Positions 7,280 to 36,132 of a stretch of DNA of 64,000 nucleotides are shown here, one piece after another; the stretch's first letter is position 1; the number at the start of each line of letters is the position of its first letter. Made by a program: the position numbers and the translations under genes. The notes under the pieces are model-generated. The model saw only the letters and a program-made list of their open reading frames with translations, searched no databases and was not told the origin of the DNA. The stretch lies in NCBI GenBank assembly GCA_030679895.1, contig JAUXSN010000047.1, positions 1,328 through 65,327 of the forward strand. The letters are read 5' to 3'. This stretch comes from Candidatus Moraniibacteriota bacterium (lineage in GTDB: Bacteria > Patescibacteriota > Minisyncoccia > Moranbacterales > UBA11712).

Positions 7280-8398
7280 TTATACTAATTTGAGATTCGC
7301 GTCCGCCTCCAGATTTTTCCAATTATTATCGAATTTATTTTTATTCTTTGCCAGTTTATATTGATAATGCCCGGCTACGGCGATCATGGCGGCATTATCC
7401 AGCGAGTAGCCGGCAGCCGGCAACTGGTATTGGGAGTTTGGCAAAAGTCTTTTTATCGCTTCGCCAAGTTGTTTTCTTAACTCCTTGTTGGCCGAAACGC
7501 CGCCGCCGAGAAGAATGGTTTTAGGCTTATATTTTTTTGCCGCCTGAACCGTTTTATGGACCAAAACATCAATCACGGCCTGTTGGAAATCATAGCATAA
7601 AGCTGATTTTAATTTTACGCTTTTCAGTATTTTCGGATTATCCCGAATAGTATAGAGAACGGCTGTCTTGAGACCCGAGAAAGAAAAGTCCAGGTTTTTG
7701 GAATTTATCATCGGCCTCGGCAGTTGGAAGGTTTGACCTTGAGGAATTTCCCGATGAATAGTCGGGAAAGGGAAAGGTCGAACCTTGAATGATTTTCGGA
7801 ATTTATCTGCGATAGCGGATACAATTGGACCGCCGGGATACCCCAATCCTAGCATTTTTGCCACCTTATCAAACGCTTCTCCCGCCGCGTCATCGAGCGT
7901 CTGTCCGACAATTTTATAATCCAGATGTTTCTTCATCAAAATCAACTCCGTATGCCCTCCAGAAACGATAAGCGCCAGAACCGGGAATCTTATTTCCCCA
8001 ACATCGGATGTTAGGCTAAGCCGGTCGATAAAATTAGCATAAATATGACCGGATATATGATGAACGCCAACCAGCGGTTTTTTCCAGGCATACGCCAAAG
8101 CTTTAGCGGCATTCGTTCCAATGAGCAGAGCCGGAATGAGTCCCGGCCCCTGGGTGACCGCTATCAAATCGATATTCCCTGAAGAAATTTTGTTTTTCTT
8201 CAAAAAGCCCCGGAGCATCACAGGCAGATTTTTCAAATGTTCGCGAGCAGCCAAATTCGGAACCACCCCGCCGAAAGGGGCGTGGACTTTTGTTTGAGAT
8301 GAAACAAGGCTGTCAATCACCGAGAATCTATTTCTCGAAACATTCACCAGGGCGACGGCCGTATCATCGCAGGAAGTTTCAACGGAAAGAATACGCAT
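7280..8398 (-). CDS. tsaD: tRNA N6-adenosine threonylcarbamoyltransferase TsaD (Kae1/Gcp family)
   Basis: MRILSVETSCDDTAVALV..., GGVVPNLAAREH, HHISGHIYANF, LALIVSGGHTELIL. Start is moved to MRILS (ATG at complement 8396-8398). The ORF-track N-extension to 8506 is a read-through of an upstream repeat copy. The gene also contains an in-frame 61-nt palindromic element at 7728-7788. Confidence 0.9.
   Translation of the reverse strand: MRILSVETSCDDTAVALVNVSRNRFSVIDSLVSSQTKVHAPFGGVVPNLAAREHLKNLPVMLRGFLKKNKISSGNIDLIAVTQGPGLIPALLIGTNAAKALAYAWKKPLVGVHHISGHIYANFIDRLSLTSDVGEIRFPVLALIVSGGHTELILMKKHLDYKIVGQTLDDAAGEAFDKVAKMLGLGYPGGPIVSAIADKFRKSFKVRPFPFPTIHREIPQGQTFQLPRPMINSKNLDFSFSGLKTAVLYTIRDNPKILKSVKLKSALCYDFQQAVIDVLVHKTVQAAKKYKPKTILLGGGVSANKELRKQLGEAIKRLLPNSQYQLPAAGYSLDNAAMIAVAGHYQYKLAKNKNKFDNNWKNLEADANLKLV
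7728..7788. repeat. 61-nt near-perfect palindromic element (family A), in-frame inside tsaD
   Basis: AAGGTTTGACCTTGAGGAATTTCCCGATGAATAGTCGGGAAAGGGAAAGGTCGAACCTTGA. Outer arms AAGGTTYGACCTT/AAGGTCGAACCTT, inner hairpin TTTCCCGAY-GAATA-GTCGGGAAA. Translated as KVRPFPFPTIHREIPQGQT. Confidence 0.9.
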
Positions 8399-8441
8399 AT
8401 TTGATATTATACGGCAAAAGTTTAATTTTAGGAATTTCCAT

Positions 8442-8502
8442 AAGGTTCGACCTTGAGGAATTTCCCGACGAATAGTCGGGAAAGGGAAAGGTCGAACCTT
8501 GA
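8442..8502. repeat. second copy of family A palindromic element, intergenic between hup terminator and tsaD start
   Basis: 59 of 61 nt identical to the copy at 7728-7788. Confidence 0.9.
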
Positions 8503-8507
8503 TCACT

Positions 8508-8551
8508 AAACCACAAAAAACCCCGCGCTATGGCGGAGCTTTTTGTGGTTT
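8508..8551 (-). terminator. hairpin terminator downstream of hup (AAACCACAAAAA-CCCCGCGCTATGGCGGAGC-TTTTTGTGGTTT)
   Basis: Long stem with an inner GC stem. Sits directly after the HU gene stop on the minus strand. Confidence 0.55.
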
Positions 8552-8597
8552 CAAAAGTTCAACCCTAGGCACAGCCGATAGTTGAACTTTAGGATAG

Positions 8598-8870
8598 TTA
8601 GCTCATTACCGCGTCTTTCAGCTTCTTCAAAACTCGAGCCTTAAGAACGGTTTTGGCGGGAATGCTGATGCTTTCTCCCGTCATTGGGTTTCTTCCCATT
8701 CGAGCCGCCCGATTTTTCTTTTCGAGCTTAACCAAGCCCGGAATTTCAACGGCTTCTTTTTTGACCGTGGCTTTCACGACCTCGCCCATGGTCTCAATGA
8801 CCATCAGCACGTCTTTCTTGGCGAGTTGAGTTTTCTCAACAATCGCCTCCACGAGTTCTTTCTTCTTCAT
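8598..8870 (-). CDS. hup: DNA-binding protein HU
   Basis: 90 aa from MKKKELVEAIV. The HU/IHF arm motif is RMGRNPMTGESISIPAKTVLKARVLKKL. Confidence 0.9.
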   Translation of the reverse strand: MKKKELVEAIVEKTQLAKKDVLMVIETMGEVVKATVKKEAVEIPGLVKLEKKNRAARMGRNPMTGESISIPAKTVLKARVLKKLKDAVMS

Positions 8871-8954
8871 TCGGTTTTTATTAAAGCTTATTAACTCCCC
8901 CTGTTTACTTGGGAATGATAGCATACTATCAAAAAATAAGGCAATATGGCAACT

Positions 8955-9145: not shown

Positions 9146-10762
9146 ATGATTGATAATAAACAAAATATGAGCAAACATCCCGAAGTTAATCAGCCCATTG
9201 CTGATTTTATCGCCGATCTAAAGAACAATTTTTCCATCGAAAAAGCCAAGGAAGAAGCGGAAAAAGAAACAAAAGAAGCGGAAGTTGAGGAAGCCGGAGA
9301 CAGCATGGCCAAACTCTACGAGAAAGTCAGAAATCTGATCGAGTATAAGGATGACCATCTTATAAAAAGGACGGCCATTGAACGTATTTTGAAGAGAAAT
9401 TTGATTATTGAATTCCGGCAGCAAAACTTTTCCGATCAGTTCTTGAACGAGCTCGTAATGGCCGGCTATCTGGAAAAAAAAGAAGCTGACAAGAAGCTTA
9501 AGGAAAAAATCAAAAATACCATTGCTAAATATCAAAGGGCCGTCAAGGAAACGGGAAGTTATCGAATGAAAAAATGGCTCACCGCTGTGGCTTCCTGTGA
9601 AATTGAGGCGATTATTTTTCCCAATCCAGCTCGATATGCTCTGACCCGGGCCATGTATCAAACTGTAAAAAAGAGAATTATTATCAAGGGCGGAAATAAA
9701 ATTAAGGAGGGAGATAAAGATATCCAAATTTTTTTATCGGTTCTCCGGTCCCTCTCGAAGCTTGATAAGGCTAATCTGAACTATTCTCTTCTTAAAATAT
9801 TTTTGCCTGATTGGTTCAAGGTCGATCTGACCGAAAAAGAAATCGAAAAATGCATTTTAGAATTCCCCCGACTCGCAAAGTCTTTGCAAAATAAGCTGGA
9901 AAATCCCCTCTCGGCCAAAATCGGCATTACTCTCCGGAAATACGCGGTTTATTTCAATATATTTTACGAAACAGCCCTTTCCAATATTGAAAAAATCGAT
10001 AAAATTCTTGCCAATCCGGAATCCCTTAAATTCACGATCCAGCTGGCGGCGGACGAGGTTTATGACTGGGAGATGAAAAAGTTCAGAAAACGAGTCAAGC
10101 GAAGCCTTATTTTCCTCATTATCACGAAAATAGTGTTGGCGGTAGCCGTGGAATATCCATACGACCTCTATATCAGCGGAGAAACAAATTTCCTTCCGAT
10201 TTATATAAATCTGCTTTTCCCTCCCCTCTATTTGATCATTTTATCGGCCACTATTCGCCGCCCCAGCCAGGAAAATTCAAAGATGATCGCGAAAGGCGCC
10301 GAAGAAATCGTTTACGAAAAGAAGGAAGATCCCATAGCCATAATCAACTTAAAAGAATTAAAAACAGCTTCCGATTGGTCTCTTAACATATTTTTCATCG
10401 TCACCTACGGCGTTTCTTTCGGACTAGCTGTTTGGATCCTGGATATTTTCAAATTCAACTGGCTCGGCATCCTGATATTCCTGTTTCTCTTCAGCGTGGT
10501 GAGCTTCTTCAACGCTTTGGTCCGCCAGCCCGTCCGGGAATTGCTCGTTGCCCGGGAGAAAGAAGGAATGGTCGGCGTAATAATCGACACGCTTTCGATG
10601 CCTTTCGTCAGAATCGGAAAATGGATGTCGGTCAATTTTTCCCGGGTCAATGTTTTCATTTTCTTGTTCGATGTCGTCATTGAAGCCCCTTTCAAAGTGG
10701 TCGTGCGCTTTATCCAGCAATGGGCGGGATTTTTGAGAAAGCAGAAAGATGAAATGATATAG
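9146..10762 (+). CDS. hypothetical protein with acidic coiled-coil N-terminus and C-terminal multi-TM region
   Basis: 538-aa uninterrupted ORF in a compact gene array. No motif recognised by eye. Confidence 0.55.
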   Translation: MIDNKQNMSKHPEVNQPIADFIADLKNNFSIEKAKEEAEKETKEAEVEEAGDSMAKLYEKVRNLIEYKDDHLIKRTAIERILKRNLIIEFRQQNFSDQFLNELVMAGYLEKKEADKKLKEKIKNTIAKYQRAVKETGSYRMKKWLTAVASCEIEAIIFPNPARYALTRAMYQTVKKRIIIKGGNKIKEGDKDIQIFLSVLRSLSKLDKANLNYSLLKIFLPDWFKVDLTEKEIEKCILEFPRLAKSLQNKLENPLSAKIGITLRKYAVYFNIFYETALSNIEKIDKILANPESLKFTIQLAADEVYDWEMKKFRKRVKRSLIFLIITKIVLAVAVEYPYDLYISGETNFLPIYINLLFPPLYLIILSATIRRPSQENSKMIAKGAEEIVYEKKEDPIAIINLKELKTASDWSLNIFFIVTYGVSFGLAVWILDIFKFNWLGILIFLFLFSVVSFFNALVRQPVRELLVAREKEGMVGVIIDTLSMPFVRIGKWMSVNFSRVNVFIFLFDVVIEAPFKVVVRFIQQWAGFLRKQKDEMI

Positions 10763-12507: not shown

Positions 12508-13266
12508 ATGAAAGACGAAAAAAAATACAAAAGCGAGCCCTTCTTCATGAATGGTAATAATGGGATTGGCATTTTATTGTTCCATGGCTGGTCTTCTCCG
12601 CCTGATGAATTTTTGTCGCTCGCGAAATATCTCAATTCTTTCGGCTACACTGTTTCTGCCCCCCTACTCGCCGGACACGGGACAAAGCCGGAAGATCTTC
12701 TAGGCGTGACTTGGCAGGAGTGGATGCAAGATTCCCAAAAATATCTTGGCGATCTGAAGAAGCAAACACCTCGAATTTTTGTCGGAGGGATTTCGATGGG
12801 AGGAAATTTGGCGATGCTTCTGGCTGAAGATGAAAATGTCGCGGGAGTGATCACTATGGGCGCTTCAGTCAAATTTCACTTTCAAGTTTTGGTGAAAATA
12901 GGCCTTTTTTTTATGGGACTGACAAAAACCTACAGGAAGAAATACTATCCCCCGTGGGTGAGAAAAAAAATGGGCAAGCACGATGTTTATCCCTATTATC
13001 CCGTCAAGAGCGCCAAGGAAGTCGTGAAGCTCGCAGAATACACGCAAAACAATCTTTCAAAAATCAGAAAGCCCATACTCATTATGCAGTCGACCACCGA
13101 CCACCTGGTTTCCCACAAATCGCCAAAGATGATTTATGACGGCGTCAATTCCGAAGTAAAAAATATTTTTTGGGCGGAGAAAGCCTATCATGTTTTTATA
13201 AACGGCGAGGGAAAGGAAAAAGCGTTTGAAAAGATAAGAGAATTTATTTCGCGGATTATTTCCTAA
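12508..13266 (+). CDS. alpha/beta-hydrolase, carboxylesterase-like
   Basis: ILLFHGWSSPPDEF, nucleophile elbow GISMGG, and a C-terminal His region. 252 aa. Confidence 0.75.
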   Translation: MKDEKKYKSEPFFMNGNNGIGILLFHGWSSPPDEFLSLAKYLNSFGYTVSAPLLAGHGTKPEDLLGVTWQEWMQDSQKYLGDLKKQTPRIFVGGISMGGNLAMLLAEDENVAGVITMGASVKFHFQVLVKIGLFFMGLTKTYRKKYYPPWVRKKMGKHDVYPYYPVKSAKEVVKLAEYTQNNLSKIRKPILIMQSTTDHLVSHKSPKMIYDGVNSEVKNIFWAEKAYHVFINGEGKEKAFEKIREFISRIIS

Positions 13267-13308
13267 CATTCAATGTTAGGAGCACCTAACATTCAATGTT
13301 AGGGTGCT
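13262..13308. repeat. two tandem 19-bp perfect palindromes CCTAACATTCAATGTTAGG (13262-13280, 13285-13303) nested in AGCAC...GTGCT
   Basis: Exact palindromes. They overlap the esterase stop (TAA at 13264-13266) and end 10 nt before the AGGAAA Shine-Dalgarno of the GT4 gene. Confidence 0.9.
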
Positions 13309-13318
13309 AGGAAATACA

Positions 13319-14527
13319 ATGCGCATAGCCATCTTCACTAACAACTATCTTCCAAATCCCTACGGCGTTTCGGGGTCTGTCGAAAGTTTCCGCAAGGAAT
13401 TCGAAAAATTGGGCCATGAGGTTTATGTGTTCGCGCCACATTGGAAGGGATTCATTGATGAATGGAAGCTAAACTTCCACGATGGAAGTTTAGCTTCCAA
13501 GAGCCCTCGTGTTTTTCGTTACCCTTCCTTTGAAACAAATGTGAAAATAAGGTTTCCTTTGGCAATCCCCTATTCCGGGAAAATTGATAAAATTTTAGAA
13601 GATTTGGATCTGGATATCATTCATTCCCAACATCCGAATCTTCTCGGAAGCGCCGCGATGAAGTGGGCAAAGAAAAAAAATATTCCCCTCGTCTTCACTT
13701 GGCACACGCTTTATGACCAATACGCGCATTTCGCGCCTTTTGTCCCGCGGCGCATCGCCGCATGGTGGACGATCCGCAACGCGAGAATTTACGCCAACCG
13801 GTGCGACGCGGTAATCACGCCCACGCCGTCAGTGATCGAAATAATCAGAAAATGGGGCGTAACAAATAAAAATATCACGGCTATTCCGACGGGGGTGGAG
13901 GAAAATCAATTCGCCGATCCCGATCGGAAAAGCATAAGGGAAAAATATAATATCCAGAATAAAGAAGTTCTCTTAATCTTATTTTCACGGCTGACGGCAG
14001 AAAAAAATGTCGAGTTTCTTCTCGGCTACGTGATTGAAATTTTGAAAAATAATCCAAAGGCAAAATTTTTGATCTGCGGCGAAGGAGATCTGCGAAAAAA
14101 ACTGGAAGAGCAAGCTTCGAAAAGCGCCGCGGCAGAAAAAATATTTTTCGCCGGTTTGGTTCCGGATGATATCAAGAAAAATTATTTTTCTGCCGGGGAT
14201 ATTTTTGTTTACGCCTCAAAATCGGAAACGCAGGGAATGAGTCTCACCGAGGCGATGTACACTAGTCTTCCGATTGTCGCGGTTCGGGCAACCGGAGTGC
14301 AAGATATTGTCGAAGACGGCAGAACGGGATTTTTGGTTTCGGAGGATAAAAATGAATTTCAAACCGCGGTGGAAAAATTGATTGATAACGAAAGCTTGCG
14401 GAATAAATTCGGCGAGGAAGCGAAGCAGGTGGCAAGAAAAAAATATACTTCTTTAGTTTGCGCAAAAAAAATGCTTGAAGTTTATAATAATGCAATAGAA
14501 ACAAGAAAAGGTACCTTATTAAAATAA
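13319..14527 (+). CDS. glycosyltransferase family 4 (GT-B, group 1)
   Basis: MRIAIFTNNYLPNPYGVSG... GT4 N-domain, C-terminal EGDLRKKLEE...GLVPDD... and the E-x7-E region. Start chosen at the ATG with an AGGAAA SD. The ORF-track start at 13304 is a GTG inside the palindrome. Confidence 0.85.
   Translation: MRIAIFTNNYLPNPYGVSGSVESFRKEFEKLGHEVYVFAPHWKGFIDEWKLNFHDGSLASKSPRVFRYPSFETNVKIRFPLAIPYSGKIDKILEDLDLDIIHSQHPNLLGSAAMKWAKKKNIPLVFTWHTLYDQYAHFAPFVPRRIAAWWTIRNARIYANRCDAVITPTPSVIEIIRKWGVTNKNITAIPTGVEENQFADPDRKSIREKYNIQNKEVLLILFSRLTAEKNVEFLLGYVIEILKNNPKAKFLICGEGDLRKKLEEQASKSAAAEKIFFAGLVPDDIKKNYFSAGDIFVYASKSETQGMSLTEAMYTSLPIVAVRATGVQDIVEDGRTGFLVSEDKNEFQTAVEKLIDNESLRNKFGEEAKQVARKKYTSLVCAKKMLEVYNNAIETRKGTLLK
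13464..13498. repeat. 35-nt palindromic element (family B) in-frame inside the GT4 gene: GGAAGCTAAACTTCC-ACGAT-GGAAGTTTAGCTTCC
   Basis: Two 15-nt hairpin units. Translated as WKLNFHDGSLAS. A close relative sits at 32973-33007. Confidence 0.9.
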
Positions 14528-14647: not shown

Positions 14648-15208
14648 ATGAAAATCCTCCCCCGCAAATTCTATTCCCGCCCTACATTGAAAGTCGCCCA
14701 GGATCTCCTCGGTTGTTTTCTTGTCCGCAAATACCGCGGAAAAATATGGCGCGCCATGATAACCGAAACCGAAGCCTATGTCGGCGAGAAAGATCTGGCC
14801 TGCCACGCTTCAAAAGGAAGAACTCCAAGGACGGAAGTGATGTATGGCGAGCCCGGCCACGCTTACGTCTATATGATTTATGGCATGTATCATTGTCTCA
14901 ACATCGTGACCGAAAAAAAAGATTTCCCCGCCGCGGTTTTGATACGCGCAGTGGAAATTATAGATAATCCCCCTCTCCTTAATAAGGAGAGGGTTGGGGT
15001 GAGGTTAAACGGCCCCGGAAAACTTTGCAAATTTCTGAAAATAGACAGGAAACTCAATAAATGGGATCTGACAAAAAAAGATAAATTATGGCTGGAACAC
15101 CGTGGCTCAAAAATTAAGCTGGATAAGATAAAAAAGTCTAAGCGTATAGGCATTGACTACGCCCAACACTGCCGGGAATCTTTGTGGCGGTTCACTTTAA
15201 ATTCCTAA
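14648..15208 (+). CDS. mpg: DNA-3-methyladenine glycosylase (Mpg/AAG family)
   Basis: ITETEAYVGEKDLACHASKGRTPRTEVMYGEPGHAYVYMIYGMYHCLNIV and NGPGKLCKFL match the Mpg fold signature. 186 aa. Confidence 0.85.
   Translation: MKILPRKFYSRPTLKVAQDLLGCFLVRKYRGKIWRAMITETEAYVGEKDLACHASKGRTPRTEVMYGEPGHAYVYMIYGMYHCLNIVTEKKDFPAAVLIRAVEIIDNPPLLNKERVGVRLNGPGKLCKFLKIDRKLNKWDLTKKDKLWLEHRGSKIKLDKIKKSKRIGIDYAQHCRESLWRFTLNS
14969..15006. repeat. 38-nt palindromic element (family C) in-frame inside mpg: CCCCCTCTCCTT-AAT-AAGGAGAGGG-TTGGGGTGAGGTT
   Basis: Perfect 10-bp hairpin plus a conserved 3' tail. Translated as NPPLLNKERVGVR. Second copy at 29417-29454. Confidence 0.9.
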
Positions 15209-17710: not shown

Positions 17711-17765
17711 AAATACTAAACTAATCTAACAAAAAACGACCGGATGGTCAATGTTTTTCTTATCT

Positions 17766-17826
17766 AAAGCTAAGCTTTTCCCTTACTCGCTATTCGCTCG
17801 CAATTCCTCAAAGCTTAGCTTTTTTA
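17766..17826. repeat. pair of mutually inverted 13-nt palindromes AAAGCTAAGCTTT / AAAGCTTAGCTTT(TTT) downstream of the pilus operon
   Basis: Copies at 17766-17779 and 17810-17826 share the AGCTTAGCT core with the family B element. The second is followed by a T-run and overlaps the stop of the 106-aa gene. Confidence 0.7.
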
Positions 17827-18144
17827 AAAACCTTCTGGATAAAAAATGTCCTTGCCGGTAAATTTATAATCGCTCTCAAGTCTTTCCTTTTTCAACTTGA
17901 TCAGATCGGTAACTTGTCGATAACTCTTCTCATCAAAAGAAAATACGGCCTGTTCTTTGATATACTCCTGTTTTTTTTCTTCGCTCCAATCAGCATTATA
18001 AACAAAGCTTTCCCATATCCAAACGGCGTATGCCGCAACTCCCAATAAAAAAATGAGATAAAGCCAGCGCAAAATGAAAACGCTTGTTTTCCGCAAGATT
18101 TCTTTTCCCCGATCGATTTTTTTCGACTTTTTAATTTCCGTCAT
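17824..18144 (-). CDS. small membrane protein, last gene of the pilM-N-O operon (unknown function)
   Basis: 106 aa with one TM helix (ILRWLYLIFLLGVAAYAVWIW). Its start overlaps the PilO-like gene stop by 14 nt. Confidence 0.5.
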   Translation of the reverse strand: MTEIKKSKKIDRGKEILRKTSVFILRWLYLIFLLGVAAYAVWIWESFVYNADWSEEKKQEYIKEQAVFSFDEKSYRQVTDLIKLKKERLESDYKFTGKDIFYPEGF

Positions 18145-28476: not shown

Positions 28477-30111
28477 TCAGTGCCCGAAGAAGCCTCGGGC
28501 GAGTTTGTCGGGGATTTGAATGAGAGTCGCACTTTTATCCGCGCAAAGTTTTTGGATTTCGCCATCATTGACGGAACCGGAAGTGGCAAAAATAGCCTTA
28601 ATTCCCGCATCGATCAGGACTTCAGGAGCGTCGGAAAAGGGGAAAAAGCTGTCGCTCGCCGCTACCGCGCCTTCTGATTCATGGCCGGCGTCTTTGGCGC
28701 GCTTGATGGCGAGCTCGCAGCAACCCACCCTGTCCTGCTGGCCAACCCCGTTTCCGATAAGTTTTCCGTCTCTGACTAAAGTTATCGTATTTGAATTTGA
28801 AGTCGCTGAAATCGCCCAGGCCAGGAGTATTTCAGATTTATTTTTTTCATCTATCTCGCCCTGAATTCTAATTTCCGGATGGTTGTAGTCTAAAACAAAA
28901 GTATAATTCGGCTGAGTTAGAAACCCTCCACGGACATAACGGAGTCTCTTCGTAGTATCGAAATTATTTTTATTCAAATTTTCCAGCGCCGGATTAACAA
29001 TAAAACGGCATTTATCTTTTTTGCGCCTCGAAAGCTCCAGCGCTTTTTCTGAAAATCCGGCTGTCACGATTCCGTCCAATAATCTTCTTTTTCCATTTTC
29101 CATTAAATGCGTAAGTAGTATTTCCGCTTCAGCCTCGTCAAAGTCAAAATTAAACATCGAGAGCCCCCCGAAAATGGCCCGCGGATCGCCTTCGACGACT
29201 TTTTTGATGACTTCAATTTTATCGTCGCCGTAGCTCGCCCCGCAACAATTGCCGTGCTTTACCGCCACCCCATAATATTTCGCGGAAACACTATTTATTT
29301 CGAACACCGCCGCAATATGCGTCAAAGTCTGAAGCATGCGGTCAATGTCGCAGATATTATTATAACTCGGCGCCATTTCAGTGAGAACTTTGAATTTATC
29401 AAGAGCCAGCGAATCACTCCCTCTCCTTGACAAGGAGAGGGTTGGAGTGAGGTTTGAATATAGTTTTCCCGGCGTTTGATAAGCGTTTTCGCCATACAAA
29501 GTTTCAGCAACCTGCTCACCAACTGCTCCGTTATACTTTTCTTTTGAATGAAATTTTGCCGACTCCAGGCAATATTTGGAAATAACGTATTCCGCTTTCG
29601 CCGCCAGCTCAATCCTTTCTTCCTTTGAAATATCGCCATTATTTTTCAGCTTCTTAACCACTTTTTCCCTGTCGCTCGGATCACAGATAACAATCCTTCC
29701 GCCTTTGGCCGCGGATCGGATCATAGCCGGTCCTCCGATATCTGTCGCTTCAATTACTGTTTCATAACTCGCATCCGATTTTGCAATCGCGTCTTCCAGC
29801 GGATACAGATCAACACAAACCAGATCAATAAACGGTATTTTTAGTTTTGCGAGCTCTTCCAAATCTTCCACAACTTCCGGCCTTGCCATGAGCCCGGCGT
29901 GAATTTCCCGCGAAAGCGTCACCACCCGATGGCCAAGAATAGCCTTTCCTCCCGCAATCTCCGAAACATCTTTAGCTTTTATTCCGTGCTCCGCCAAATA
30001 TTTCGCCGTCCCGCCCGAAGAAATAATCTCCCAGCCCAAATCAACCAAATTCTTGGCAAACTTTTCGATGTCTTGCTTATTGTAGACTGAAATTAATGCG
30101 GTTTTTTTCAT
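28477..30111 (-). CDS. purH: bifunctional AICAR transformylase / IMP cyclohydrolase PurH
   Basis: N-terminal MGS-like domain (MKKTALISVYNKQDI...SSGGTAKYL), then the AICARFT domain. 544 aa. Contains the family C palindromic element in-frame. Confidence 0.9.
   Translation of the reverse strand: MKKTALISVYNKQDIEKFAKNLVDLGWEIISSGGTAKYLAEHGIKAKDVSEIAGGKAILGHRVVTLSREIHAGLMARPEVVEDLEELAKLKIPFIDLVCVDLYPLEDAIAKSDASYETVIEATDIGGPAMIRSAAKGGRIVICDPSDREKVVKKLKNNGDISKEERIELAAKAEYVISKYCLESAKFHSKEKYNGAVGEQVAETLYGENAYQTPGKLYSNLTPTLSLSRRGSDSLALDKFKVLTEMAPSYNNICDIDRMLQTLTHIAAVFEINSVSAKYYGVAVKHGNCCGASYGDDKIEVIKKVVEGDPRAIFGGLSMFNFDFDEAEAEILLTHLMENGKRRLLDGIVTAGFSEKALELSRRKKDKCRFIVNPALENLNKNNFDTTKRLRYVRGGFLTQPNYTFVLDYNHPEIRIQGEIDEKNKSEILLAWAISATSNSNTITLVRDGKLIGNGVGQQDRVGCCELAIKRAKDAGHESEGAVAASDSFFPFSDAPEVLIDAGIKAIFATSGSVNDGEIQKLCADKSATLIQIPDKLARGFFGH
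29417..29454. repeat. second copy of family C palindromic element, in-frame inside purH (TCCCTCTCCTT-GAC-AAGGAGAGGG-TTGGAGTGAGGTT)
   Basis: 33 of 36 positions identical to the mpg copy. Translated on the minus strand as NLTPTLSLSRRG. Confidence 0.9.
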
Positions 30112-32127: not shown

Positions 32128-33123
32128 TTAACCAAACGACTCATCATATGCAACCCCGGGCGGAAATATTTCTTTTGATTTCTTTTTATATTCTTCGTAT
32201 ATTTTCACCCCCTGCGGCTCCGGCAAAAAAATTAGATTATCGTCCGTTGCTTCGATATATGCGCCCTCCTTTTTGGTTAACGGATTGCGCGAAATTCTTA
32301 TGATTTGCTTTTGCTTTAGCCAGGCTTCCATTATATCGCCTCCCAGAAAATTTATCAAGGTCTCTTTGGTTTTTTGAATAAGCCGGCTTATCTTGCTATG
32401 TTCCGTATAATATTTGGCTGGCTTCAGTTGCGGCATTTCCCAATTCGGCTTGAATTTATTGATCCAGCCGGCATTTGTCCCGCAGAATTTTTGAAAAACA
32501 TTAAATCCAAAAATGGGATATACAAAGCTATATTCGTTCGCCCCAAATAAGTCTTGGCGCTGGATTTCAAGGCTCCCGGTCGTGATAAAGTAGTTTAGGC
32601 AGATCCGATTTTTTATTCTCTTTCCATATCGCCGCTTGCTAAGCAGATGCACAACTAACGTAACCAGTAGCCGCCCGGTAAATATTCTTCCTTTTTCTAG
32701 TGCCACAAAAAAATCAATGTCGCTGCTTTGTTCCGGGTTCTTCATCGCGAGAGTTCCTGTCACCGCGACCATCCGGACGAACGGGACAAAGCGCAACCAC
32801 CAAGCCACTCGCTCCGCAATTTTGAACTTCATGATGGAATTCTTGTCGTTTTGGATTCTCTTTCCGACTAAACTCTTCCGCCCTTTCAAAAAGTAAAAGC
32901 CGCGAAATTCTTCGATGTGCTTTCTTAATTCTTTATTCTCTAGCGTTTCGATAATATTCCCAAGCGTGCAATGGAAGCTTAGCTTCCCCCGTGGAAGCTT
33001 AGCTTCCACGATCAAATATTTCCAAAGTTCGAAAGAAGTTAAGGGATGATTGAGGATGTCGCAGTAGGTAATCGTATGAAGTATATTTTTAGAAAGCTGA
33101 GATTGCACAAACGTTAAGATCAA
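32128..33123 (-). CDS. nucleotidyltransferase-fold protein (Pol-beta superfamily GS/GT...SDID motif), function unknown
   Basis: 331 aa. VAVTGTLAMKNPEQSSDIDFFVAL fits the minimal nucleotidyltransferase signature. Occupies the slot upstream of groEL. Contains the family B palindromic element in-frame. Confidence 0.45.
   Translation of the reverse strand: MILTFVQSQLSKNILHTITYCDILNHPLTSFELWKYLIVEAKLPRGKLSFHCTLGNIIETLENKELRKHIEEFRGFYFLKGRKSLVGKRIQNDKNSIMKFKIAERVAWWLRFVPFVRMVAVTGTLAMKNPEQSSDIDFFVALEKGRIFTGRLLVTLVVHLLSKRRYGKRIKNRICLNYFITTGSLEIQRQDLFGANEYSFVYPIFGFNVFQKFCGTNAGWINKFKPNWEMPQLKPAKYYTEHSKISRLIQKTKETLINFLGGDIMEAWLKQKQIIRISRNPLTKKEGAYIEATDDNLIFLPEPQGVKIYEEYKKKSKEIFPPGVAYDESFG
32973..33007. 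repeat. second copy of family B palindromic element (GGAAGCTTAGCTTCC-CCCGT-GGAAGCTTAGCTTCC), in-frame in the nucleotidyltransferase-fold gene
   Basis: Two identical 15-nt hairpin units. Translated on the minus strand as VEAKLPRGKLSF. Followed by ACGAT, as in the spacer of the GT4 copy. Confidence 0.9.
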
Positions 33124-36033: not shown

Positions 36034-36132
36034 ATTTTATCCGCCTCCCTCTTCTTAATAAGGAAAGATGAGCGAGGTTGTTGAAATGAGGTAAAAAGAA
36101 AACAGCTAATTGCTAATTGTATAGTAGAAAAT

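What the first reader, a model, noticed from the sequence alone, without database searches (positions are those of the whole stretch)
7728..7788. Family A: 61-nt cruciform-capable palindrome inside tsaD, plus a copy just upstream of the tsaD start
Copies at 7728-7788 and 8442-8502 differ at 2 of 61 positions (both T/C). Outer 13-bp arms are AAGGTTYGACCTT and AAGGTCGAACCTT. The inner 9-bp hairpin is TTTCCCGAY-GAATA-GTCGGGAAA. The internal copy encodes KVRPFPFPTIHREIPQGQT inside TsaD, between the C-terminal-domain segments ...IADKFRKSF and FQLPRPMINSKNLDFSFSGLK. The upstream copy is in the same frame (KVRPFPFPTIRREIPQGRT), which produces the spurious 36-aa N-terminal extension in the six-frame track. 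TsaD is essential, so the insertion must be tolerated.
Basis: seen in the sequence. Interest (0 to 1): 0.7.

Follow-up and report, generated by a model that had tools for sequence, protein, structure and literature searches.

The report
Selfish hairpin repeat inside tsaD gene

Summary
Copies lie at 7728-7788 (inside tsaD, minus strand) and 8442-8502 (43 nt upstream of the real ATG). They differ at 2 of 61 bases and fold as a nested 13-bp plus 9-bp hairpin. A third, diverged copy lies at 17764-17824.

The sequence is not a TsaD feature. It belongs to a dispersed repeat family found in about 20 independent Moranbacteria/Parcubacteria assemblies. Copies occur in intergenic spacers and in frame in TsaD (two loops, both orientations), MnmA, a Mur ligase, TatD and a GT4 glycosyltransferase, using all four stop-free reading frames.

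The canonical unit is exactly 60 nt (20 codons). Both helices show compensatory changes (14 of 22 pairs), and the inner hairpin is exchangeable. Element identity between genomes (90-97%) exceeds that of the flanking tsaD DNA (65-79%).

In TsaD the insert falls in a low-confidence coil that solved TsaD structures lack.

Best reading: an RPE/MITE/REPIN-like selfish palindromic element, translated through and tolerated in surface loops. The mobilising enzyme is unknown, and the window contains no transposase. No Rfam family matches, and I found no paper describing this in CPR.

Verdict: a new variant of a known kind, moderately high interest.

The parts
7728..7788 (-). Intragenic copy of the palindromic element. 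The 60-nt unit is 7728-7787. Outer arms are 7728-7740 and 7774-7786, the inner stem is 7747-7755 and 7761-7769, and the loop is 7756-7760. It is read in tsaD sense as KVRPFPFPTIHREIPQGQT.
   Evidence: Covariance-model hit of 85.6 bits. Relative to the upstream copy it has two C-to-T changes on the + strand, each turning a stem pair into C.A in the mRNA sense (G.T on the + strand).
8442..8502 (-). Intergenic copy with both stems perfect. It lies between the terminator-like hairpin of the HU-like gene and the tsaD start, 43 nt upstream of the ATG.
   Evidence: Best covariance-model hit of all, 94.5 bits.
17764..17824 (+). Third, diverged family member. Its arms are AAAGCTAAGCTTT / AAAGCTTAGCTTT, the spacers are conserved and the inner hairpin has decayed. 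It is intergenic, between tRNA-Arg(tcg) and ORF 17824-18144.
   Evidence: Covariance-model hit of 52.8 bits, E about 1e-10. It has the same arm subtype as L009 and L021.
7280..8398 (-). tsaD coding sequence, 372 aa plus stop. It hosts the in-frame copy at residues 205-223.
   Evidence: 100% identical to P0001 (NCBI MDP1845895.1, annotated TsaD).
8399..8506 (-). Spurious 36-codon upstream extension of the tsaD ORF, kept open because the upstream copy has no stop codons in this frame.
   Evidence: orthologues begin at M(R/N/L)IL.
8508..8551 (-). Terminator-like GC hairpin followed by a T run, downstream of the HU-like gene. It marks the boundary of the spacer that holds the upstream copy.
   Evidence: I8. 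The homologous hairpin is present in the L002 spacer. The consensus scan did not call it a terminator.
8554..8590 (.). Small hairpin AAAGTTCAAC...GTTGAACTTT with arms like the L013 subtype. It may be a simple or remnant relative.
   Evidence: I20. It is conserved in L002. Its relationship to the family is inferred only.
8598..8924 (-). HU-like DNA-binding protein gene, the upstream neighbour of tsaD.
   Evidence: The syntenic genes in L001-L004 hit PF00216.

Best explanation
The palindrome is one copy of a family of short, non-coding, nested-hairpin repeats that propagate at the DNA level in genomes of Moranbacteria-like Parcubacteria (CPR). It is the same kind of thing as Rickettsia palindromic elements, MITEs and REPINs.

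Anatomy. Two 13-nt arms (AARGY-NNN-RCYTT) are each self-complementary and are inverted copies of each other. Conserved spacers (TTYCC and ATTCCTC) follow. In the centre sits an exchangeable inner hairpin. The canonical unit is 60 nt.

What is shown:
- The same sequence occurs at unrelated sites in many genomes.
- Its identity does not follow the host gene's phylogeny.
- Both stems are kept by compensatory changes.
- The coding-sense ('T') orientation is almost free of stop codons in all three frames.
- Copies inside genes have lengths that are multiples of three and sit in loops.

What is inferred:
- New copies are made by an unidentified trans-acting activity that recognises the hairpin rather than a fixed sequence. 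This may act on one DNA strand in single-stranded form. Mismatches are almost always G.T wobbles on the 'P' strand (the strand complementary to T), and no target-site duplication is visible.
- Copies survive only where they are harmless: intergenic spacers, or disordered surface loops when they land in frame.
- In tsaD the element is simply translated, giving a 19-20-residue loop between the helix ending ...IADKF and the strand FQLPRPM.
- The pristine upstream copy and the slightly degraded intragenic copy are two separate residents of this family.
For: Repeat family.
- A pattern for the inner part found 4 stretches of DNA (5 copies) in reference genomes. These came from a Candidatus Moraniibacteriota MAG with 4 copies on 3 contigs, and a Parcubacteria MAG.
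- The same approach found 21 metagenome loci.
- A covariance model then found diverged members too, 31 copies in 215 kb held.

Independence from host and frame.
- Frame KVRPFPFPTIRREIPQGRT occurs in TsaD loop 2, TatD and MnmA.
- Frame QGSTFPFPDYSSGNSSRSNL occurs in TsaD loop 1, a Mur ligase and a GT4 glycosyltransferase.
- The opposite orientation, KGSTLRNFPTNSRGRERSNLG, occurs at TsaD loop 2 in L029.
- Intergenic copies include window 8442 and 17764, L008, L011, L013, L001:4365 and L004:9262.

Structure.
- In 24 canonical copies, 7 of 13 outer pairs show changes on both sides.
- In 31 copies, 14 of 22 pairs show changes on both sides, and 94.7% of cells are paired against 52-57% when the partner is slid by one column.
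- Inner hairpins with entirely different sequences still pair.

Not vertical. The element is 90-93% identical between the window and L001/L003, while flanking tsaD DNA is 65-79% identical and the whole gene 68-72%. The window's closest TsaD relatives (P0002/L016 and P0004/L002) carry a different arm subtype at the same site.

Coding compatibility. Canonical copies are exactly 60 nt. 81 of 93 T-orientation frames are stop-free, against 37 of 93 in the other orientation and 48% in shuffles.

Tolerated position. Residues 205-223 lie in a coil with pLDDT below 50 (187-227) in the AlphaFold model. The segment is absent from solved TsaD structures 6nak/6n9a and 8iey and from orthologues such as P0018, P0044, P0093 and P0103.

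Strand hint. Among non-Watson-Crick cells, 26 are C.A on the T strand (equivalent to G.T on the P strand), spread over 9 pair classes, against 1 G.T on the T strand.
Against: - No transposase, integrase or HUH protein is encoded in the 64-kb window. All 46 ORFs of at least 110 aa were scanned, and every Pfam hit was to a housekeeping-type family. No parent element was identified, so mobility is inferred from distribution and not observed.
- I found no filled-versus-empty pair close enough to fix the junctions. The absence of a target-site duplication is therefore only apparent.
- The same loops (TsaD loops 1 and 2, the MnmA loop) and even the same intergenic positions (upstream of tsaD in L002, the 3' end of the GT4 gene in L001 and L003) are occupied by different versions in different genomes. 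That could equally mean old insertions evolving in place under selection for a hairpin, or gene conversion, rather than repeated transposition.
- Copy number per genome looks low: 3 in this 64 kb, and 4 canonical copies (those matching the pattern) in one MAG.
- Translation through the insert is not demonstrated.
- The covariation counts use related sequences, and one of the two alignments was fitted to the model.
Confidence: 0.75

Rival explanations
1. Host-useful structured DNA or RNA motif. The hairpin is kept because it does something for the cell, and its presence in coding loops is a by-product. Candidate roles are a binding site for a nucleoid or topology protein (as REP/BIME elements bind gyrase and IHF), an mRNA-stabilising or transcription-pausing hairpin, or a recombination or replication signal.
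For: Compensatory changes keep both stems. Orthologous positions stay occupied by some version of the palindrome across genomes: upstream of tsaD in the window and L002, and at the 3' end of the GT4 gene in L001 and L003. Each arm is itself a 13-bp dyad of the sort dimeric proteins bind.
Against: Copies occur in both orientations relative to genes, inside and outside transcripts, and at no fixed distance from starts or stops. The arm sequence differs between subfamilies, so one sequence-specific binder cannot serve them all. No T run follows the hairpin and the terminator scan found nothing. No Rfam family matches. Selection for a structure needed for the element's own propagation explains the covariation equally well.
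Confidence: 0.12
2. A lineage-specific functional TsaD insert. The 19 residues are a protein-level adaptation of TsaD in these bacteria, for example a partner-binding loop, and the DNA palindrome is incidental.
For: Many orthologues at 65-80% identity carry a similar peptide at the same position.
Against: The same DNA is read in a different frame at TsaD loop 1 and in the Mur ligase and GT4 gene. It is read on the other strand at the very same TsaD loop in L029. It is not translated at all in spacers. Other orthologues have unrelated palindrome-derived peptides or a short loop there. The model predicts a disordered coil. The DNA is more conserved than the peptide's selective context would require.
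Confidence: 0.03
3. The element is not translated. It is removed from the mRNA or skipped by the ribosome, as with the T4 gene 60 gap or the mitochondrial 'byp' elements, so that TsaD is made without the extra loop.
For: A stable hairpin sits inside a coding region. The 60-nt length would keep the frame if skipped.
Against: There are no matched take-off and landing codons and no stop after the 5' junction across copies. The only intragenic copy in the stop-rich orientation uses its single open frame. Decayed copies stay in frame with lengths that are multiples of three. Both points are expected only if the element is translated.
Confidence: 0.03
4. Palindromes generated locally by replication template switching or fold-back repair at fragile loop-coding sites, without any copy-and-paste element.
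For: The same loops accumulate many different palindromes. Nested palindromes exist (P0053, P0141).
Against: Local generation cannot produce the same 60-nt sequence at 90% or higher identity in unrelated genes and spacers of many genomes.
Confidence: 0.02

Closest known systems
Rickettsia palindromic elements (RPE; Ogata et al. 2000, Science 290:347, as summarised in PMC10969869)
   Same: Both are short palindromic repeats with no gene of their own, dispersed in a small genome. Both are frequently inserted in frame into unrelated housekeeping genes, where they add a peptide at positions compatible with the fold. Both also occur in intergenic DNA.
   Different: There is no sequence relationship and the host phylum is different (CPR/Patescibacteria, not Rickettsia). 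This element is 60 nt rather than about 100-150 bp. It has a modular nested architecture with an exchangeable inner hairpin. One orientation is stop-free in all three frames, and four of the six frames are actually used. The same loop is occupied in both orientations and by several families.
REP / REPIN elements mobilised by RAYT (IS200/IS605-like Y1 transposases)
   Same: Two short imperfect palindromes in inverted orientation form a longer hairpin. The structure is kept by compensatory change. No target-site duplication is evident. There is a hint of strand specificity consistent with a single-stranded DNA intermediate.
   Different: REPs are by definition extragenic, carry a GTAG or CGTC tag and reach hundreds of copies. 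Here there is no such tag, many copies are intragenic, the copy number is low, and no RAYT was seen in the DNA available.
Bacterial MITEs found inside genes (ERIC, Correia, BOX, Nezha and others; review PMC10969869)
   Same: Terminal inverted repeats, small size, no coding capacity, and occasional in-frame fusions with host ORFs.
   Different: MITEs normally show a target-site duplication and a recognisable parent insertion sequence. Neither was found here. At 60 nt this element is at the very small end of the range.
Coding palindromes and GC-cluster or 'byp' elements in mitochondrial genes (for example Nematomorpha, PMC6649704)
   Same: Hairpin-forming repeats embedded in essential protein-coding genes and tolerated there.
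   Different: Those are organellar and much longer, or are translationally bypassed. Here the host is a bacterial chromosome and the element appears to be translated.

Membership tests
Rickettsia palindromic elements (RPE) | Belongs to one of the RPE sequence families of Rickettsia genomes | tested here: not met
   The host is a Moranbacteria-like Patescibacterium. No RPE consensus library was available, so this rests on host taxon and length only.
Rickettsia palindromic elements (RPE) | Palindromic repeat inserted in frame in unrelated protein-coding genes as well as in spacers | tested here: met
   Found in TsaD, MnmA, a Mur ligase, TatD and GT4, plus intergenic copies.
Rickettsia palindromic elements (RPE) | Length about 100-150 bp | tested here: not met
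   The canonical unit is 60 nt.
Rickettsia palindromic elements (RPE) | Insertion at surface positions compatible with the protein fold | tested here: inconclusive
   The insert lies in a coil with pLDDT below 50 in a model of only moderate quality (mean pLDDT 70.8). It aligns to a gap in solved TsaD structures.
MITE | Terminal inverted repeats on a short element with no coding capacity, present in several copies | tested here: met
   13-nt inverted arms on a 54-64-nt element. 31 copies in the DNA held.
MITE | Target-site duplication flanking the element | tested here: inconclusive
   No direct repeat is evident in 22 aligned flanks. The left flank is T-rich followed by a conserved C, and the right flank is variable. 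No close empty site was available to fix the junctions.
MITE | A parent insertion sequence with the same termini encoding a transposase | not testable with these tools
   None among the window's 46 ORFs. Whole genomes could not be retrieved.
REP / REPIN-RAYT | Inverted doublet of short palindromes forming a hairpin | tested here: met
   Each arm is self-complementary and the two arms pair with each other. Both models are supported.
REP / REPIN-RAYT | Conserved GTAG or CGTC tetranucleotide at one end | tested here: not met
   The ends are (C)AAGG...CCTT in all copies.
REP / REPIN-RAYT | Extragenic location and high copy number | tested here: not met
   About half of the copies are inside genes. 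There are 3 copies in 64 kb.
REP / REPIN-RAYT | A RAYT (Y1 transposase) gene in the genome | not testable with these tools
   Not present in the window.
Curated structured RNA families (Rfam 15) | Match to a covariance model at its gathering score | tested here: not met
   No hit at the elements at gathering thresholds. With relaxed thresholds only chance-level hits appear.
Intrinsic terminator | GC-rich hairpin followed by a T run, at the 3' end of a transcription unit | tested here: not met
   The scan found none in 7600-8700. Copies sit inside genes and in both orientations.

The most novel reading that the evidence does not exclude
These CPR genomes may have a hairpin-directed insertion or conversion process. 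Palindromic elements would land preferentially in, or overwrite, pre-existing palindromes. Under this reading a few permissive protein loops (two in TsaD, one in MnmA) and a few spacers become long-lived 'palindrome nests', whose occupant is repeatedly replaced, inverted or nested. The process would act on one specific DNA strand in single-stranded form, and it would be a major generator of loop diversity in the conserved proteins of these reduced genomes.
Probability: 0.3. Interest if true: 0.75.

Novelty: new variant of a known kind. Interest (0 to 1): 0.6.

Why it matters
In-frame selfish palindromes have been a textbook oddity of Rickettsia. An independent, structurally different family that does the same in CPR bacteria suggests convergence in small, host-dependent genomes. 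In CPR it recurs in the same loops of universal enzymes such as TsaD and MnmA.

There are three practical consequences:
- It explains a class of odd length variation and odd 'conserved' peptides in CPR proteins.
- It warns annotators about false N-terminal extensions.
- The element's strict structural conservation offers a handle for finding the unknown enzyme that moves it.

It also offers natural experiments on which loops of essential enzymes tolerate 20-residue insertions.

Tried and rejected
- The source contig could not be fetched. Exact look-up of the TsaD protein found nothing, and the reference-genome scan did not return the source genome. Copy number in this genome beyond the window is therefore unknown.
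- A census of host proteins by peptide search failed. The word-indexed search found no candidates for the concatenated four-frame peptides. The exhaustive HMMER search with the 33-aa translation of the upstream copy returned only two unrelated repeat proteins.
- Scans of viral contigs, phages and plasmids found nothing. The one arm-based viral hit, L030, is an unrelated high-GC array of small hairpins.
- Rfam gave no family.
- The promoter and terminator scan was uninformative.
- The 514-aa open stretch across the L009 copy has no Pfam hit and looks like antisense, non-coding sequence, so I did not count it as a host gene.
- I looked for a close empty site in MnmA to define junctions and any target-site duplication. 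The nearest homologues are only 76% identical, and most are themselves occupied.
- I rejected translational bypass, an intein or intron, CRISPR, and assembly artefact. On the last point, the element recurs in many independent assemblies.

Full report
**1. The observation**

The two 61-nt copies are at 7728-7788 and 8442-8502. They differ only at 7734/8448 and 7755/8469, both T versus C. No shuffle of the window produced a match.

Each copy folds as a nested hairpin with 13 outer and 9 inner pairs:
- As DNA: -16.9 and -22.2 kcal/mol.
- As mRNA-sense RNA: -23.5 and -33.3 kcal/mol.
- Z-scores between -4.9 and -7.4.

tsaD lies on the minus strand at 7280-8398. The ORF stays open up to 8506 only because the upstream copy, 238 codons away and so in the same frame, contains no stop codon. 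Orthologues, and the identical database protein of 372 aa, start at MRILSVETS. Both substitutions in the intragenic copy are C-to-T on the + strand. They change Arg to Gln and Arg to His, and each replaces a stem pair by C.A in the mRNA sense.

**2. It is not a TsaD feature**

An alignment of 34 TsaD orthologues shows that many carry a similar 19-aa segment at the same place:
- KVRPFPFPTICREIPQGQT
- KIRPFPSPTIRRGIPQGRT
- KARLFPSPTVRRGIPQSQA

Others have a short loop (P0018, P0044, P0093, P0103) or quite different repeat-like peptides. A second variable spot lies after HIYANF.

The DNA of four orthologous loci showed that the shared peptide is the same DNA palindrome. It also showed that one relative (L002, a Candidatus Moraniibacteriota MAG) carries a 97%-identical copy at the other TsaD loop, read in a different frame as QGSTFPFPDYSSGNSSRSNL.

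**3. The family**

- A pattern for the inner part found 4 stretches of DNA (5 copies) in the reference-genome collection: four copies in that MAG and one in a Parcubacteria MAG. It found 21 metagenome loci.
- The hosts of in-frame copies are TsaD loop 2, TsaD loop 1, a Mur ligase (L007), a TatD hydrolase (L010), a GT4 glycosyltransferase (L014/L022) and MnmA (L018).
- In L029 the element sits at TsaD loop 2 in the opposite orientation and is read as KGSTLRNFPTNSRGRERSNLG, the only open frame of that strand.
- Junctions at loop 2 differ between L002, L029 and the window. At least three separate events have therefore hit this loop.
- Other copies are intergenic.
- A covariance model built from 24 distinct copies recovered 31 members in the DNA held. 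These include the third window copy at 17764-17824 and members whose inner hairpin has a completely different sequence but still pairs.
- Simple arm-only hairpins with the same arm type also exist. One lies just upstream of the tsaD ATG in L002. That is the position corresponding to the window's upstream copy, in a homologous spacer.

**4. Structure and coding properties**

The arms change in concert. Observed arm pairs include AAGGTTCGACCTT/AAGGTCGAACCTT, AAAGCTCGGCTTT/AAAGCCAAGCTTT, AAAGCTAAGCTTT/AAAGCTTAGCTTT, AAAGTTCAACTTT/AAAGTTGAACTTT and AAAGTCCGGCTTT/AAAGCCGGACTTT.

- In the 24-copy alignment, 7 of 13 outer pairs show changes on both sides.
- With the diverged members, 14 of 22 pairs do, and 94.7% of cells are paired against 52-57% when partners are slid by one column.
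- Caveats: the sequences are related, and the second alignment was fitted to the model.
- Each arm is also self-complementary.
- Canonical copies are exactly 60 nt.
- 81 of 93 frames in the coding-sense ('T') orientation are stop-free, against 37 of 93 in the other orientation and 48% in shuffles.
- Non-Watson-Crick cells are almost all C.A on that strand, which is G.T wobble on the complementary 'P' strand. There are 26 such cells in 9 pair classes, against 1 of the reverse kind. This hints that the hairpin of one particular strand is what is preserved.

**5. Relation to host phylogeny**

Between the window and L001 or L003, the element is 90-93% identical. The flanking 150 nt of tsaD are 65-79% identical and the whole gene 68-72%. 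The window's nearest TsaD relatives (P0002/L016 and P0004/L002, 78-80% protein identity) carry a different arm subtype at loop 2. More distant relatives share the window's subtype. The occupant therefore does not follow the gene tree.

**6. Position in the protein**

The AlphaFold model is moderate (mean pLDDT 70.8). It places residues 205-223 in a coil with pLDDT below 50 (187-227). The other hotspot, 126-133, is likewise a low-confidence loop. Solved TsaD structures (6nak/6n9a, 8iey) align with a gap there.

**7. Generality**

- In MnmA, the loop between TGHYAR and EAKDKxKDQSYFLY carries the family-A peptide in about a dozen of 52 orthologues.
- One orthologue has a nested case: P0141, IKVRPANQGSTFPLADYSSANSSRSNLLEISQGRTL.
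- Others carry different palindrome-derived peptides, and a few have a short empty loop.
- Inside the window, other palindrome families also lie inside ORFs.

**8. What was not found**

- No Rfam family.
- No viral, phage or plasmid copy.
- No transposase among the window's 46 ORFs.
- No evident target-site duplication.
- No paper describing such elements in CPR, in seven full-text searches. Absence from that library is not proof of absence from the literature.
- The closest described phenomenon is the Rickettsia palindromic element (PMC10969869, citing Ogata et al. 2000).

**9. Conclusion**

The best explanation is a selfish, structure-dependent palindromic repeat that is translated where it lands in frame in tolerant loops. 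The way it moves, and the reason the same loops and spacers stay occupied across genomes, remain open. A hairpin-targeted insertion or conversion process is the most interesting possibility not excluded.

Noticed in passing
window 17764-17824 (+): Third, diverged member of the same family. It is intergenic next to tRNA-Arg(tcg), its inner hairpin has decayed, and its arms are of the AAAGCTAAGCTTT subtype.
   Followed up: yes
window 13463-13499 (+), inside ORF 13304-14527 (GT4 glycosyltransferase): A different palindrome, TGGAAGCTAAACTTCCA-CGA-TGGAAGTTTAGCTTCCA, lies in frame and encodes EWKLNFHDGSLASK. A related copy at 32972-33008 lies inside the minus-strand ORF 32128-33123 and encodes VEAKLPRGKLSFH. 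This looks like a second in-frame palindrome family.
   Followed up: partly
window 14971-15006, 29419-29454, 36047-36082: Repeat CCCTCTCCTTAATAAGGAGAGGGTTGGGGTGAGGTT. The first copy is inside the methylpurine-DNA glycosylase ORF 14648-15208, which is 20 aa longer than its L001 orthologue. The second is inside the PurH-like ORF 28480-30111. The third is between the uvrA and RNase J genes.
   Followed up: partly
window 13262-13303: Two tandem copies of the small palindrome CCTAACATTCAATGTTAGG, just upstream of the GT4 gene.
   Followed up: no
window 8554-8590 and L002 about 9866-9906: A hairpin AAAGTTCAAC...GTTGAACTTT directly after the HU-like gene is conserved in both genomes. It is followed by the terminator-like hairpin and then by a palindrome of the family-A arm type. 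That palindrome is the 61-nt element in the window and a 42-nt arm-only hairpin in L002. The same spacer position is therefore occupied by different versions.
   Followed up: partly
TsaD orthologues P0014, P0026, P0036; P0005, P0019; P0007, P0017, P0020 (alignment A1): The same two TsaD loops carry other palindrome-like peptides: CHCE..DEAI..GSPRSLRSLAMT, TWN.(K/E)HGTKK..APCSMLH, and ISNFKFQISNF. These loops seem to collect several repeat families.
   Followed up: partly
MnmA orthologues P0123-P0174: The loop after TGHYAR is a comparable hotspot. It holds family A, a nested A-in-A case (P0141), VIARSEATWQS...LLRSARNDK, HVTRNTKHVTK and FSIFNFQFSNN types, and a few short empty loops.
   Followed up: partly
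P0053 (TsaD) and P0141 (MnmA): Apparent nested insertions. One family-A copy, in a different frame, sits inside the centre of another. This suggests the centre of the hairpin is itself a preferred landing site.
   Followed up: no
L001 4365-4431 and L003 410-450: At the 3' end of the orthologous GT4 gene, one genome has a 67-nt nested family member and the other a 41-nt arm-only palindrome with covarying arms (AAGGCCGAACCTT).
   Followed up: partly
alignment A3 (31 copies): Stem mismatches are strongly one-sided: 26 C.A cells on the coding-sense strand against 1 G.T. This is as if only the complementary strand's hairpin tolerates wobble pairs.
   Followed up: partly
window 54529-54597 (-): Rfam DUF3800-IX sRNA motif (51 bits, above gathering score), next to a DUF3800 gene at 53878-54501.
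   Followed up: no
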